Positions 5,445-13,722 of a stretch of DNA of 64,000 nucleotides are shown piece after piece. Every line of letters starts with the position of its first letter. The stretch's first letter is position 1. Both the position numbers and the translations under genes were made by a program. Source of the DNA: the human T2T-CHM13v2.0 reference genome, Homo sapiens; assembly GCF_009914755.1 (NCBI RefSeq), contig NC_060929.1. One strand, 5' to 3'. Under the pieces are notes generated by a model. That model worked only from the letters and a program-made list of their open reading frames with translations. It made no database searches and had not been told where the DNA came from.

Positions 5445-5546
5445 GAGTGACAGTTCATTTAGATTCTTTGTATTCTTCTTCGTCTATATTTGTCAGTTTG
5501 CTGTACATGTACTCCAAGCTGCAGGATTTCATAACTGGGGCAATTG
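5445..5546 (+). CDS. SCAMP1: SCAMP1 internal coding exon (third from last), 102 nt, phase 2-2; includes a hydrophobic TM segment
   Basis: Branch-like CCTAAC at ~5404, long pyrimidine tract, AAAG|G acceptor and TG|GTAAGT donor. Translates (R)[33 protein letters not shown](C), recognised as SCAMP1. Not called in the ORF track. Confidence 0.95.
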
Positions 5547-6761
5547 GTAAGTTTTTTTTTTTACTAGTTTTCAGCTTTAATCTAATATTGTAATATAATT
5601 TTTGGCTTCCTAATCTAGTTAACACAGATAAACCAGATTAGAAAAATTAAATAAAAAGCAAAAATTGTTTTAAAAATACAATTTTAAAATGTCATAAGGC
5701 ATAAACTTTGGACAAACCTGTGTCTTTGAAGATTATGTTCCCATCTATAAAAACAGCACATTTTTTCTAGTTTAAATAAAACATGTATGTAAGGGCGCTA
5801 AGAGGAAGACTGCAAAAGAGACTGAGGTGGTCAGAGAGATAGAGGGACCAAGGAATGTGGAAGGGACAGGAAAGAGCTTCAGGGATTTTAAGGAAAAGGG
5901 ATACCTATTATGTATAAAGCCCTATTTTAGGTATACAAACAGATATATTTTTATATACGAATATGCATGGACACTTGTCTTTGAAAGGTAGAATAACTGC
6001 ACACACGTTATATACATATATCTTTAAACAATCGAATCATTCTCATGGCTCATTCAGTGGGGGACCTCAGAAATGGAGACTATCTGGACCCAGGCTAGGA
6101 GGTAATAGCAGATTTAGGTCTCTCTTTACATTCTGATGCAAACATTCCTTGAGTGAAATGGTGGGTGGAAGAGTACACATCTCTAAAATTATCTGTTCCT
6201 CTCTTCTTTCTTTTATACTGACTTGCATTCAGCTGTATTCTTACATGTCAGAAGAATGTGTGATGCAACTTTGTTCCACTGTGTACATTAAACCAAAATT
6301 GAAATTAGCATTTAATTAGAATGTGTTGAGGACTTACATTTAGTATTCTGCTACTGAAGTGGAGAAGTGATTGGCAGACAACTCCTGGCAGTTCTGCAGA
6401 GCTCCTAATGGGCATAAATACATGCAGAAAATTTATATAGATATTTAAAATCAGTTCTCAGATAAAGTAGTTTTTATTATTATTTTAAATAGTGTCTAGT
6501 TTTTGGTATTTTAGGGAAAGGAAATGTTTTAAATGTTTAATTAAAAATATACTGCTTACTTTAACAGCACGAGGTTTTTTTAATTCTCGTGAAAGTGAGG
6601 TAATTTCTTTCGCTTTTTAGCACAGACATAGGGAAAATGCTAAAATTGAGCATAACAGCATGTATGTGACTAAATAGCGTAAAAAGAGTCTGCTAATGAG
6701 GGTGCATACAGAATTGACCTGTTTTAAGATAGACCCTCATGTAGTTCAGATTTTTTAGGTT

Positions 6762-7677
6762 AAACTTTTTACTTTTAGGTAATCATAGATTCACATACAA
6801 TCATAATAAATAACACAGAAATCTCAGGTACCCTTTATCCTGTTTCACCCAATGGTAATAATCTTGTAGAACTATAGTAAAATATAAATACCAAGATCTT
6901 GACATTGATAGTAAAGATAAAGCACATTTTCATCACCAGAGGATTCCTCATGTTGCTTTTTCATAGCCACTCTCAAAACTCCCCTTTTCCCACTCCTTAA
7001 CCCCTGGCAATCACTAATGTGTTCTTCATTTTTGTTGTTTTGTCATTTCAAGAAGGTTATAGATGTGGAATCATAGTCTACAACCTTTGGCTTTTTTCCC
7101 CTCAGTGTTATTTTCTGGAGATTTATCCAGGTTGTTATGTTTATCTGTAGTTTATTCTAATTTGATTGATTGATTGATTGATTGATTGAGACAGAGTCTC
7201 GCCCTATCACCCAGGCTGGAGTGCCGTGGCATGATCTCAGCTCACTGCCTCCACCTCCTCGGTTCAAGTGATTCTCATGCCTCAGCCTCCCGAGTAGCTG
7301 GGATTACAGGCACCTGCCACCCAGCCCAGCTGATTTTTCTATTTTTAGTAGAGACAGGATTTCGCCATGTTGCCCAGGCAGGTCTTGAAGTCCTGGCCTC
7401 GTGTGATCTGCCCGCCTCAGCCTTCCATAATACTGGGATTACAAGCGTGAGCTACCATGTCTGGCCTCCTTTTTATTTTTGAGTAGTATTCTATGATATG
7501 GATGTATCACAGGTTATTTAACTGTTCACCAGTTGAAGGGCATCAGTATTGTGTCCAGTTTTGGACTATTACAAATAAAGCTGCCATGAAATTTGTGAAT
7601 AGATTTTTGTGTGAACATAATTTTCATTTCTCTGGGATAAATGCCCAAGAGTGTAATTATTGGATTATATGGATGTT
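6762..7677 (-). mobile_element. Old L1 (L1M-type) 3' end; host of the L1PA2 insertion, resumes at ~13739-14060
   Basis: Degenerate reverse L1 3' UTR/ORF2 sequence on both sides of the young L1. Confidence 0.7.
7162..7466 (-). mobile_element. Alu (J/old S) with (TTGA)7 tail
   Basis: Reverse Alu dimer; tail converted to a tetranucleotide repeat at 7162-7189. Confidence 0.9.
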
Positions 7678-7917
7678 GCACATTTAGTTTTCTTTTCTTT
7701 TTTTTTTTATTATACTTTAAGTTTTAGGGTACATGTGCACATTGTGCAGGTTAGTTACATATGTATACATGTGCCATGCTGGTGCGCTGCACCCACTAAC
7801 TCGTCATCTAGCATTAGGTATATCTCCCAATGCTATCCCTCCCCCCTCCCTCCCCCCACCCCACGACAGTCCCCAGAGTGTGATATTCCCCTTCCTGTGT
7901 CCATGTGATCTCATTGT

Positions 7918-11737: not shown

Positions 11738-11800
11738 TATGATGTTAGCTGGTGATTTTGCTCGTTAGTTGATGCAGTTTCTTCCTAGTCTCGATGGTCT

Positions 11801-12817
11801 TTACATTTTGGCATGATTTTGCAGCGGCTGGTACCGGTTGTTCTTTTCCATGTTTAGCGTTTCCTTCAGGAACTCTTTTAGGGCAGGCCTGGTGGTGACA
11901 AAATCTCTCAGCATTTGCTTGTTTGTAAAGTATTTTATTTCTCCTTCACTTATGAAGTTTAGTTTGGCTGGATATGAAATTCTGGGTTGAAAATTCTTTT
12001 CTTTAAGAATGTTGAATATTGGCCCCCACTCTCTTCTGGCTTGTAGGGTTTCTGCCGACAGATCTGCTGTTAGTCTGATGGGCTTCCCTTTGAGGGTAAC
12101 CCGACCTTTCTCTCTGGCTGCCCTTAACATTTTTTCCTTCATTTCAACTTTGGTGAATCTGACAGTTATGTGTCTTGGAGTTGCTCTTCTAGAGGAGTAT
12201 CTTTGTGGTGGTCTCTGTATTTCCTGAATCTGAGCGTTGGCCTGCCTTGCTAGATTGGGGAAGTTCTCCTGGATAATATCCTGCAGAGTGTTTTCCAACT
12301 TGGTTCCATTCTCCCCATCACTTTCAGGTACACCAATCAGACGTAGATTTGGTCTTTTCACATAGTCCCATATTTCTTGGAGGCTTTGCTCATTTCTTTT
12401 TATTCTTTTTTCTCTAAACTTCCCTTCTTGCTTCATTTCATTCATTTCATCTTCCATTGCTGATACCCTTTCTTCCAGTTGATCGCATGGGCTCCTGAGG
12501 CTTCTGCATTCTTCACGTAGTTCTCGAGCCTTGGTTTTCAGCTCCATCAGCTCCTTTAAGCACTTCTCTGTATTGGTTATTCTAGTTATACATTCTTCTA
12601 AATTTTTTTCAAAGTTTTCAACTTCTTTGCCTTTGGTTTGAATGTCCTCCCGTAGCTCAGAGTAATTTGATCGTCTGAAGCCTTCTTCTCTCAACTCGTC
12701 AAAGTCATTCTCCATCCAGCTTTGTTCCGTTGCTGGTGAGGAACTGCGTTCCTTTGGTAGAGGAGAGGCGCTCTGCGTTTTAGAGTTTCCAGTTTTTCTG
12801 TTCTGTTTTTTCCCCGT
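11801..12817 (-). CDS. L1 ORF1p: 338 codons open, but initiator is ACG; first ATG is codon 35 (12715)
   Basis: AAAG-ACG-GGG-AAA-AAA-CAG reads without a stop into the tracked 304-aa ORF; 1017 nt including stop, the canonical ORF1 length. Confidence 0.85.
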   Translation of the reverse strand, partial: TGKKQNRKTGNSKTQSASPLPKERSSSPATEQSWMENDFDELREEGFRRSNYSELREDIQTKGKEVENFEKNLEECITRITNTEKCLKELMELKTKARELREECRSLRSPCDQLEERVSAMEDEMNEMKQEGKFREKRIKRNEQSLQEIWDYVKRPNLRLIGVPESDGENGTKLENTLQDIIQENFPNLARQANAQIQEIQRPPQRYSSRRATPRHITVRFTKVEMKEKMLRAAREKGRVTLKGKPIRLTADLSAETLQARREWGPIFNILKEKNFQPRISYPAKLNFISEGEIKYFTNKQMLRDFVTTRPALKEFLKETLNMEKNNRYQPLQNHAKM

Positions 12818-13722
12818 CTTTGTGGTTTTATCTACTTTTGGTCTTTGATGATGGTGATGTACAGATGGGTTTTTGGTGTGGATGTCCTTTCTGTTTGTTA
12901 GTTTTCCTTCTAACAGACAGGACCCTCAGCTGCAGGTCTGTTGGAATACCCTGTCGTGTAAGGTGTCAGTGTGCCCCTGCTGGGGGGTGCCTCCCAGTTA
13001 GGCTGCTCGGGGGTCAGGGGTCAGGGACCCAGTTGAGGAGGCAGTCTGCCCGTTCTCAGATCTCCAGCTGCGTGCTGGGAGAACCACTGCTCTCTTCAAA
13101 GCTGTCAGACAGGGACATTTAAGTCTGCAGAGGTTACTGCTGACTTTTTGTTTGTCTGTGCCCTGCCCCCAGAGGTGGAGCCTTCAGAGGCAGGCAGTCC
13201 TCCTTGAGCTGTGGTGGGCTCCACCCAGTTCGAGCTTCCCGGCTGCTTTGTTTACCTAAGCAAGCCTGGGCAATGGTGGGCGCCCCTCCCCCAGCCTCGC
13301 TGCCGCCTTGCAGTTTGATCTCAGATTGCTGTGCTAGCAATCAGCGAGACTCCGTGGGCGTAGGACCCTCCGAGCCAGGTGCAGGATATAATCTCGTGGT
13401 GCGCCATTTTTTAAGCCGGTCCGAAAGGCGCAATATTCGGGTGGGAGTGACCCGATTTTCCAGGTGCGTCTGTCACCCCTTTCTTTGACTCGGAAAGGGA
13501 ACTCCCTGACCCCTTGCGCTTCCCAAGTGAGGCAATGCCTCGCCCTGCTTCGGCTTGTGCACGGTGCGCGCACCCACTGACCTGTGCCCACTGTCTGGCA
13601 CTCCCTAGTGAGATGAACCTGGTACCTCAGATGGAAATGCAGAAATCACCCGTCTTCTGCGTCGCTCTCGCTGGGAGCTGTAGACCGGAGCTGTTCCTAT
13701 TCGGCCATCTTGGCTCCTCTCC
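12818..13722. promoter_or_regulatory. L1 5' UTR: internal sense promoter (-) and antisense promoter (+, same direction as SCAMP1); CpG-rich; YY1 site at 13703-13712
   Basis: The most CpG-dense stretch of the window; CAAGATGGCC intact on minus. Promoter function is inferred from established L1 biology. Confidence 0.8.
13273..13488 (+). CDS. L1 ORF0 (71 aa, antisense to the L1 5' UTR), intact
   Basis: GCAATGG start context; MVGAPPPASLPPCSLISDCCASNQRDSVGVGPSEPG...RFSRCVCHPFL-TGA; internal donors CAG|GTGCAG (13378) and CAG|GTGCGT (13463). Confidence 0.85.
   Translation: MVGAPPPASLPPCSLISDCCASNQRDSVGVGPSEPGAGYNLVVRHFLSRSERRNIRVGVTRFSRCVCHPFL

What the first reader, a model, noticed from the sequence alone, without database searches (positions are those of the whole stretch)
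5546..13722. 'Gene-breaking' layout: antisense L1 supplies both a premature poly(A) site and a new promoter
Seen: on the SCAMP1 strand the L1 carries AATAAA at 8152-8157 followed by GU-rich ACGTGTGCATGTGTCTTT, and an outward-facing promoter at its other end. Read-through of the 5546 donor gives TGG TAA, so the protein would end ...HNWGNW and lose the last TM and the tail. Established: antisense full-length L1s can split host genes into 5' and 3' transcripts. Inference: SCAMP1 may be expressed as two complementary pieces that divide the tetraspan core. Other intronic AATAAA hexamers (e.g. ~5650, ~7575) could compete.
Basis: partly seen in the sequence, partly recalled or inferred. Interest (0 to 1): 0.7.

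Follow-up and report, generated by a model that had tools for sequence, protein, structure and literature searches.

The report
Antisense L1 inside a SCAMP1 intron
A dead, full-length L1 retrotransposon sits backwards in a SCAMP1 intron; its antisense promoter is already published as a minor alternative start for the last two SCAMP1 exons, while its poly(A) signal is a feature of the whole L1 family with no shown use here, so the locus is an ordinary example of a known layout.

Summary
The sequence observation is correct. A 6,029-nt L1 (7694-13722, minus strand) lies antisense in the intron between the exons at 5445-5546 and 14757-14874. AATAAA is at 8152-8157 with a GU-rich stretch behind it, and reading through the 5547 donor gives TGG TAA.

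Neither signal is special to this copy. 28 of 29 closest L1 copies in the same genome carry the same hexamer and downstream stretch. The antisense ORF0 and its splice donor are equally generic.

The promoter half is already in print. Criscione et al. 2016 (text, Fig. S5B, Table S7) list 10 ESTs, all from one bladder-carcinoma cell-line source. They start in this L1PA2 at about L1 nt 420-457 and end in the last two SCAMP1 exons.

The poly(A) half is unshown. I found no paper on intronic polyadenylation in SCAMP1, and the supplied RefSeq table lists no SCAMP1 exon in this intron. Attig et al. 2018 report that MATR3/PTBP1 repress cryptic poly(A) sites in LINEs and bind young L1s preferentially.

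Best reading: a normally spliced-out intronic L1 with a conditionally active antisense promoter. The "gene-breaking" layout is real, but a two-piece SCAMP1 protein is speculation.

One detail is added: ORF0 spliced from its donor at 13464 to the exon at 14757 is in frame with SCAMP1 (157 codons).

The parts
5445..5546 (+). SCAMP1 exon (third transmembrane segment); ends two bases into a codon
   Evidence: Hub gene table; translation.
5547..5552 (+). Donor GTAAGT; in-frame TAA at 5548-5550 on read-through
7484..7672 (-). Left part of an older L1 fragment, same orientation, into which the young L1 inserted. It has its own + strand AATAAA at 7574-7579.
   Evidence: Local alignment to 8051-8240 scored 73; 200 shuffles gave mean 24.7 and max 45. 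Hexamer.
7678..7693 (.). Target-site duplication, left copy (core 7683-7693)
7694..13722 (-). Full-length L1, called L1PA2 in hg19 RepeatMasker as quoted by Criscione 2016. No longer coding-competent: no start codon where ORF1 usually starts, and ORF2 has a premature stop and at least two frame changes.
   Evidence: subfamily name from Table S7.
7750..7758 (+). Strong 5' splice-site-like motif CAG|GTTAGT (8 of 9 matches; 7750 is the first intron base), about 400 nt before the hexamer
7870..7870 (+). First base after a candidate cryptic acceptor (C-rich tract then CAG) on the antisense strand of the L1 3'UTR
   Evidence: simple rule-based scan; use not shown.
8152..8157 (+). Antisense-strand AATAAA, in the ORF2 3' part at L1 nt 5566-5571
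   Evidence: kept in 28 of 29 close copies.
8158..8200 (+). GU/U-rich downstream stretch. At +10 to +50 it has T 0.41 and G+T 0.63; the true SCAMP1 3' end has 0.46 and 0.63.
8943..8948 (+). The only other strong hexamer (ATTAAA) on the antisense strand of the L1
12825..13722 (-). L1 5'UTR (898 nt, 34 CpG). It overlaps the RefSeq 'enhancer' 12843-13452.
   Evidence: hub table.
13266..13302 (+). Approximate 5' ends of 10 published L1-SCAMP1 ESTs (L1 nt about 420-457), i.e. the antisense promoter's start region
   Evidence: Criscione 2016 Table S7. Converted from hg19 by anchoring the gene end, so approximate.
13273..13488 (+). ORF0, 71 codons, intact (L1 nt 450-235)
   Evidence: The 71-codon frame is kept in 23 of 29 close copies and the ATG in 29 of 29.
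13461..13469 (+). Donor CAG|GTGCGT inside ORF0; the intron would start at 13464, 191 nt after the ORF0 ATG
   Evidence: identical in 23 of 29 close copies.
13723..13738 (.). Target-site duplication, right copy (core 13728-13738)
13765..13966 (-). Right part of the older L1 fragment
   Evidence: blastn: 73% identity to 8287-8428 and 72% to 8458-8522.
14757..14874 (+). SCAMP1 exon carrying the fourth transmembrane segment; acceptor for the L1 antisense transcripts
   Evidence: Hub table. One EST ends inside it and 9 of 10 run on to the last exon.
30982..36217 (+). Last SCAMP1 exon (coding to 31146); 9 of 10 ESTs end at about 31165-31397
   Evidence: Hub table.

Best explanation
A fixed, coding-dead L1PA2 inserted by ordinary target-primed reverse transcription into an older L1 fragment in SCAMP1's third-from-last intron, antisense to the gene. 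In most cells the whole element is probably removed with the intron, and SCAMP1 is made as one full-length mRNA.

The element keeps the family's antisense promoter in its 5'UTR. Where that promoter is active, transcription starts at about L1 nt 420-457 and leaves the L1 through its 5' end. It is then spliced to the exons at 14757 and 30982, giving a minor L1-SCAMP1 chimeric RNA. This has been seen in one bladder-carcinoma cell-line source; demethylation of the L1 there is my inference.

The antisense AATAAA at 8152 is a latent, family-wide cryptic signal. At most it ends a small share of SCAMP1 transcripts.

Shown: the anatomy, that the signals are generic to the family, and the published ESTs. 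Inferred: low use of the poly(A) signal, and the conditions under which the promoter fires.
For: - **Anatomy and insertion hallmarks:**
- **Nesting in an older L1 of the same orientation:**
- **The hexamer is generic:** 28 of 29 close copies keep it with its downstream stretch.
- **ORF0 is generic:** of 29 close copies, the ATG is kept in 29, the 71-codon frame in 23 and the identical donor in 23.
- **Published transcripts:** 10 ESTs start in this L1PA2. 9 end in the last exon and 1 in the exon at 14757. All 10 come from a bladder carcinoma cell line (Criscione 2016, Table S7 rows 1215-1224, section 9, Fig. S5B label text).
- **Start positions fit the known promoter:** that paper places the primary antisense promoter at about 400 bp and a YY1 peak at about 450 bp (section 7).
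- **RefSeq:** the hub table gives 4 SCAMP1 transcripts and, unlike for LHFPL2, no 'exons of other transcripts' in this window.
- **Pyrimidine motifs:** the L1's antisense strand has 29.0 pyrimidine-tract tetramers per kb, against 15.4 to 22.8 in the other intron stretches.
- **Strong true donor:** the donor at 5547 is TTG|GTAAGT.
Against: - By simple measures the 8152 signal looks as good as SCAMP1's real 3' end signal.
[quoted passage not shown] Some use here is therefore quite possible.
- Criscione 2016 also reports ESTs showing exonization of this L1 in SCAMP1. Splice sites inside the element are therefore used at least sometimes, which would bring a terminal exon within reach.
- I could not consult any 3'-end atlas, CAGE data, EST sequences or GENCODE, so the low-use claim rests on absence from RefSeq and from the searched literature.
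- All 10 ESTs share one source description, so nothing is known about normal tissues.
Confidence: 0.75

Rival explanations
1. True gene-breaking. A sizeable share of SCAMP1 transcripts ends at the L1's antisense poly(A) signal, by read-through or through a cryptic acceptor such as 7870. The antisense promoter supplies the downstream exons, so the gene is expressed as a 5' RNA and a 3' RNA.
For: The layout is right. The hexamer has a good downstream context. The antisense-promoter RNA exists. Exonization ESTs show that the L1's antisense splice sites can be used. Antisense L1 3' regions are known poly(A) hot spots.
Against: - My searches found no report of an intronic SCAMP1 3' end. The two papers on SCAMP1 poly(A) choice concern the 3'UTR.
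- The hub's RefSeq table has no exon in this intron.
- The same hexamer sits in nearly every close L1 copy, so its presence predicts little.
- Repression by MATR3/PTBP1 is reported for LINEs, with preferential binding to young L1s.
- A strong 5' splice-site-like motif at 7750 lies 400 nt upstream. From recalled knowledge of U1 telescripting, this would tend to suppress cleavage.
Confidence: 0.15
2. There is no real antisense promoter activity here. The 10 ESTs are 5'-truncated cDNAs of SCAMP1 transcripts that had exonized part of the L1.
For: Criscione 2016 placed SCAMP1 in the ambiguous class (Table S7) because another EST supports exonization, and notes that ESTs are not full length. All 10 ESTs come from one source.
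Against: - The 10 starts cluster within 36 nt at about L1 nt 420-457, the known start region. Random truncation would scatter them.
- The authors state that the two EST sets do not overlap.
- The table marks the transcript as previously identified.
- A RefSeq 'enhancer' feature covers 12843-13452 (hub table).
Confidence: 0.07
3. The two RNAs give two stable proteins that together rebuild, or antagonise, the four-span SCAMP1 core. One is a three-span N-terminal piece. The other is a piece with the fourth span and the tail, the latter as an ORF0 fusion.
For: ORF0 spliced from the donor at 13464 to the exon at 14757 is in frame and gives a 157-codon ORF ending at the SCAMP1 stop. Reviews citing Denli 2015 say ORF0 has two donors and forms fusions.
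Against: - Neither protein has been seen.
- It is unknown which donor the ESTs use.
- By the approximate conversion, at least 5 of the 10 ESTs start clearly downstream of the ORF0 ATG (13277 onwards), and 4 more start within a base of it.
- An in-frame junction is expected once in three by chance.
- The 5' RNA itself is unshown.
Confidence: 0.03

Closest known systems
Gene-breaking by antisense intronic L1 (Wheelan, Aizawa, Han, Boeke 2005, Genome Res 15:1073)
   Same: A full-length L1 antisense in an intron; a poly(A) signal on its antisense strand is met first, and the antisense promoter in the 5'UTR faces the downstream exons. The review passage seen describes the concept.
   Different: No transcript ending in the L1 is shown for SCAMP1. 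The paper is not held here, so I could not check whether SCAMP1 is on its list. My memory of a 'major antisense polyadenylation site' in it is recalled only; a phrase search found nothing.
L1 antisense-promoter chimeric transcripts (Speek 2001; Nigumann 2002; Criscione 2016)
   Same: Starts at about L1 nt 400-460 on the antisense strand, spliced to host exons in the sense of the gene. SCAMP1/L1PA2 is named in Criscione's section 9, Fig. S5B and Table S7.
   Different: SCAMP1 was filed in the ambiguous class because exonization ESTs exist too. It has a single tissue source and was 'not tested' by manual validation.
ORF0 fusion transcripts (Denli 2015, Cell 163:583)
   Same: An intact 71-codon ORF0 with a donor inside it, and the junction to the next SCAMP1 exon is in frame.
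   Different: Use of that donor and translation are not shown. Denli 2015 is not held, so ORF0's properties come from reviews.
Antisense LINEs insulated by MATR3/PTBP1 (Attig 2018, Cell 174:1067)
   Same: A young, pyrimidine-rich antisense L1 deep in an intron, 2,148 nt from the upstream exon and 1,035 nt from the downstream one, carrying cryptic splice and poly(A) signals.
   Different: Binding or repression at this locus was not examined. SCAMP1 occurs neither in the text nor in the 5 supplementary files held.

Membership tests
Full-length L1 (L1PA) insertion by target-primed reverse transcription | About 6 kb with 5'UTR, ORF1, ORF2, 3'UTR and an A-tail | tested here: met
   7694-13722, 6,029 nt. 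ORF1 and ORF2 remnants are on the minus strand and a 15-nt tail remnant is present.
Full-length L1 (L1PA) insertion by target-primed reverse transcription | Target-site duplication and a T-rich nick site | tested here: met
   The 11-nt exact core extends to 14 of 16 bases. The empty site reads ...TTTTCT|AAAG on the + strand.
Full-length L1 (L1PA) insertion by target-primed reverse transcription | Intact ORF1 and ORF2 (needed only for an active element) | tested here: not met
   There is no start codon at the usual ORF1 start. ORF2 has a premature stop and at least two frame changes. It is a dead copy.
Gene-breaking (Wheelan 2005) | L1 with 5'UTR in an intron, antisense to the host gene | tested here: met
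   hub gene table.
Gene-breaking (Wheelan 2005) | Poly(A) signal on the L1 antisense strand | tested here: met
   AATAAA at 8152 with a GU-rich downstream stretch.
Gene-breaking (Wheelan 2005) | Host transcript with the upstream exons that ends, polyadenylated, in the L1 | not testable with these tools
   No 3'-end atlas or EST sequences are at hand. Nothing is in print, and the hub table has no RefSeq exon there.
Gene-breaking (Wheelan 2005) | Transcript from the L1 antisense promoter carrying the downstream exons | tested here: met
   Met from print, not from my own data: 10 ESTs in Criscione 2016 Table S7.
Gene-breaking (Wheelan 2005) | Both transcripts present in the same cells | not testable with these tools
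   No expression data are available.
L1 antisense-promoter chimeric transcript | 5' end within the first 600 nt of the L1, on the antisense strand | tested here: met
   The EST starts convert to L1 nt about 420-457 (the criterion is from section 7). The conversion from hg19 is approximate.
L1 antisense-promoter chimeric transcript | Cap-dependent start, not a truncated cDNA | not testable with these tools
   This needs CAGE or cap-dependent RACE.
ORF0 fusion | Intact ORF0 with a start codon | tested here: met
   71 codons at 13273-13488.
ORF0 fusion | A donor inside ORF0 joined in frame to a host exon | tested here: inconclusive
   Donor 13464 joined to 14757 is in frame on paper, giving 157 codons. 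Which donor the ESTs use is unknown.

The most novel reading that the evidence does not exclude
In cells where this L1 is derepressed, SCAMP1 is expressed in two pieces. One is a three-span N-terminal protein from RNAs that end at the L1's antisense poly(A) signal. The other is a 157-residue ORF0-tagged protein carrying the fourth span and the cytoplasmic tail, made from the antisense promoter through the in-frame donor at 13464. The pair would alter SCAMP1-dependent membrane traffic, or the fusion junction would serve as a tumour-restricted antigen.
Probability: 0.04. Interest if true: 0.55.

Novelty: already known. Interest (0 to 1): 0.2.

Why it matters
If both halves were active, SCAMP1 would be a worked example of a retrotransposon splitting a membrane protein between its third and fourth spans. 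As it stands, the locus mainly shows two things. The signals a reader can spot in one antisense L1 are carried by nearly all close copies. And whether they act depends on repression and methylation, not on the sequence. The in-frame ORF0-SCAMP1 junction is a small, directly testable prediction for cancers that lose L1 methylation.

Tried and rejected
- **Papers not held.** Wheelan 2005, Matlik 2006, Burns and Boeke 2012, Denli 2015 and Speek 2001 could not be read. Whether SCAMP1 is on the original gene-breaking or ORF0-fusion lists therefore stays open. Criscione's 'previously identified: yes' does not say where.
- **C-GATE supplements** are not readable.
- **Kaer 2011** does not mention SCAMP1.
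- **Attig 2018:** neither SCAMP1 nor the coordinate prefixes I tried occur in the 5 supplementary files held. The per-L1 phylogenetic table could not be used to date the insertion.
- **Searches with no hit:** the phrase 'major antisense polyadenylation' and SCAMP1 with 'intronic polyadenylation'.
- **Searches with nothing relevant beyond Criscione 2016:** SCAMP1 with 'antisense promoter', 'retrotransposon' (8 papers) and 'transposable element' (16 papers). SCAMP1 with 'alternative polyadenylation' (10 papers) gave only 3'UTR events in the two papers I opened.
- **PMC9820221** mentions only SCAMP1-AS1.
- **Rejected idea:** I first thought the AATAAA at 7574 in the older L1 was the same ancestral hexamer as 8152. 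The alignment puts it about 12 nt upstream of the homologous position.
- **Acceptor scan:** my rule-based scan is crude, and it dropped the AG pair right after the L1's T-run at about 7729 and 7735.
- **Pfam check:** a Pfam check of the exon-encoded C-terminal peptide was not run, and the gene's identity rests on the hub table.
- **Presence in other primates** could not be tested with these tools.

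
Full report
**Observation.**
- The SCAMP1 exon ends at 5546 and the intron starts GTAAGT.
- In the SCAMP1 frame, read-through gives ...HNWGNW and then TAA at 5548-5550. The native mRNA instead continues into the exon at 14757, which encodes the fourth hydrophobic span.
- That immediate stop is what a consensus donor gives after any exon ending two bases into a codon, so it carries no special meaning.
- AATAAA is on the + strand at 8152-8157, followed by CATACGTGTGCATGTGTCTTTA.
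- The other + strand AATAAA hexamers in this intron are at 5650, 5775, 6805, 7574, 14088 and 14407. ATTAAA is at 5646, 6287, 6540, 8943, 14466 and 14623.

**Anatomy of the element.** The repeat is a full-length L1 on the minus strand, 7694-13722 (6,029 nt).
- It has a 15-nt remnant of its A-tail.
- Its target-site duplication has a core TTTAGTTTTCT at 7683-7693 and 13728-13738, or 14 of 16 bases when extended. The empty site ends in TTTTCT|AAAG. These are the marks of ordinary target-primed reverse transcription.
- It can no longer code for its proteins. The ORF1 frame is open but has no start codon at the usual place. ORF2 has one premature stop and then changes frame at least twice.
- hg19 RepeatMasker, as quoted in Criscione 2016 Table S7, calls it L1PA2.
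- It inserted into an older L1 fragment of the same orientation. The right flank, 13765-13966, is 72-73% identical to 8287-8522. The left flank, 7484-7672, aligns to 8051-8240 with score 73, against a mean of 24.7 and a maximum of 45 in 200 shuffles.
- The older fragment's AATAAA at 7574 lies about 12 nt upstream of the position homologous to 8152, so it is a separate hexamer.

**The poly(A) half.**
- On the L1's antisense (+) strand there is exactly one AATAAA and one ATTAAA. The sense strand has 14 and 5.
- By simple measures the 8152 site resembles SCAMP1's true 3' end. In the +10 to +50 stretch it has T 0.41 and G+T 0.63, against 0.46 and 0.63. So it is a credible signal.
- It is not a property of this copy. 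I searched the window's own genome with 8080-8260 (1,531 first-look candidates, 40 scored, 29 other loci fetched). 28 of the 29 loci keep AATAAA with the same downstream stretch, and one has AAGAAA. These are the closest copies, so the tally speaks for this subfamily only.
[quoted passage not shown] - This L1's antisense strand is 38.7% T and has 29.0 pyrimidine tetramers per kb, against 15.4 to 22.8 in the other intron stretches. A strong 5' splice-site-like motif, CAG|GTTAGT, sits at 7750.
- For SCAMP1 itself I found no report of an intronic 3' end. The two SCAMP1 poly(A) papers I opened concern the 3'UTR.
- The hub's RefSeq table lists no SCAMP1 exon between 5547 and 14756.
- The poly(A) half is therefore plausible at a low level but unshown.

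**The promoter half.** This part is already in print for this very element.
- Criscione et al. 2016 name SCAMP1 in their section on antisense-promoter transcripts that overlap exonized transcripts. The label text of their Fig. [quoted passage not shown] L1PA2'.
- Table S7 lists 10 ESTs. [quoted passage not shown]
- Their hg19 starts are 77,753,611 to 77,753,646. I anchored the gene end (77,776,562 in the table, 36,217 in the hub table). The starts then fall at about window 13266-13302, or L1 nt about 420-457.
- The same anchoring at the gene start is off by 285 bases over 120 kb, so these places are approximate.
- 9 of the 10 ESTs end at about 31165-31397 in the last exon, and 1 ends at about 14840 in the exon at 14757.
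- The paper places the primary antisense promoter at about 400 bp and a second YY1 peak at about 450 bp of the 5'UTR (section 7), which fits.
- The authors filed SCAMP1 as ambiguous because another EST supports exonization of the L1, but they note that the two EST sets do not overlap.
- The hub's RefSeq 'enhancer' 12843-13452 covers the same part of the 5'UTR.

**Coding consequences (inference).**
- The + strand ORF at 13273-13488 is the 71-codon ORF0, at L1 nt 450-235.
- A donor, CAG|GTGCGT, lies inside it. The intron would start at 13464, 191 nt after the ATG. That leaves two bases of a codon, which is exactly what the exon at 14757 needs.
- A transcript that includes the ORF0 ATG and uses this donor carries a 157-codon ORF running to the SCAMP1 stop.
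- If the RNA starts downstream of that ATG, the first ATG lies in the exon at 14757. It is in the SCAMP1 frame and gives 76 codons.
- The donors at 13527 and 13622 lie after the ORF0 stop and give no fusion.
- These features are generic. Among 29 close copies the ATG is kept in 29, the 71-codon frame in 23 and the identical donor in 23.
- Reviews that cite Denli 2015 describe two donors in ORF0 and fusion to downstream exons.
- An in-frame junction is expected once in three by chance, and I could not see which donor the ESTs use.
- On the 5' side, the ...HNWGNW end applies only to unspliced read-through. A cryptic acceptor at 7870 would add a different 61-residue tail ending at 8053.

**Verdict.**
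- The layout is the published gene-breaking layout. The concept was seen in a review passage; the original paper is not held.
- One half, the antisense-promoter RNA, is documented for this locus, though only from one cancer cell-line source. The other half is only a family-wide latent signal.
- The most likely state is a normally spliced-out, coding-dead L1 with a conditionally active antisense promoter. A split SCAMP1 protein is unsupported.
- What is demonstrated is already known, and interest is low.
- The ages of L1 subfamilies and U1 telescripting, where mentioned in this report, are recalled and come from no call.

Noticed in passing
window 7161-7403 and 14173-14418: An inverted Alu pair (155 nt at 82% complementarity, plus 100 nt at 70%) brackets the whole L1, both upstream poly(A) hexamers (7574, 8152) and the antisense promoter. 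If the arms paired in the pre-mRNA, the L1 would be looped out. No exon lies between the arms.
   Followed up: partly
window 7484-7672 and 13765-13966: The young L1 is nested in an older, more diverged L1 fragment of the same orientation. NCBI's masking does not mark this fragment, and it has its own + strand AATAAA at 7574 with a U-rich downstream stretch.
   Followed up: yes
window 7694-13722: There is a strong strand asymmetry of poly(A) hexamers in the L1: AATAAA 14 on the sense strand against 1 on the antisense, and ATTAAA 5 against 1. This matches the asymmetry described by Lee, Ji and Tian 2008.
   Followed up: yes
window 30982-36217: SCAMP1's long last exon is reported in print as a site of tandem 3'UTR poly(A) choice: shortening in lung cancer (PMC4462401) and a distal shift in metastatic ovarian tumours (bioRxiv 10.64898/2026.03.11.710989). 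Several + strand AATAAA hexamers lie inside it.
   Followed up: no
window 36217 and 40706: By the hub's gene table, SCAMP1 (+) and LHFPL2 (-) end tail to tail about 4.5 kb apart.
   Followed up: no
window 7162-7190: A short (TGAT)n run abuts the tail end of the antisense Alu just upstream of the L1.
   Followed up: no
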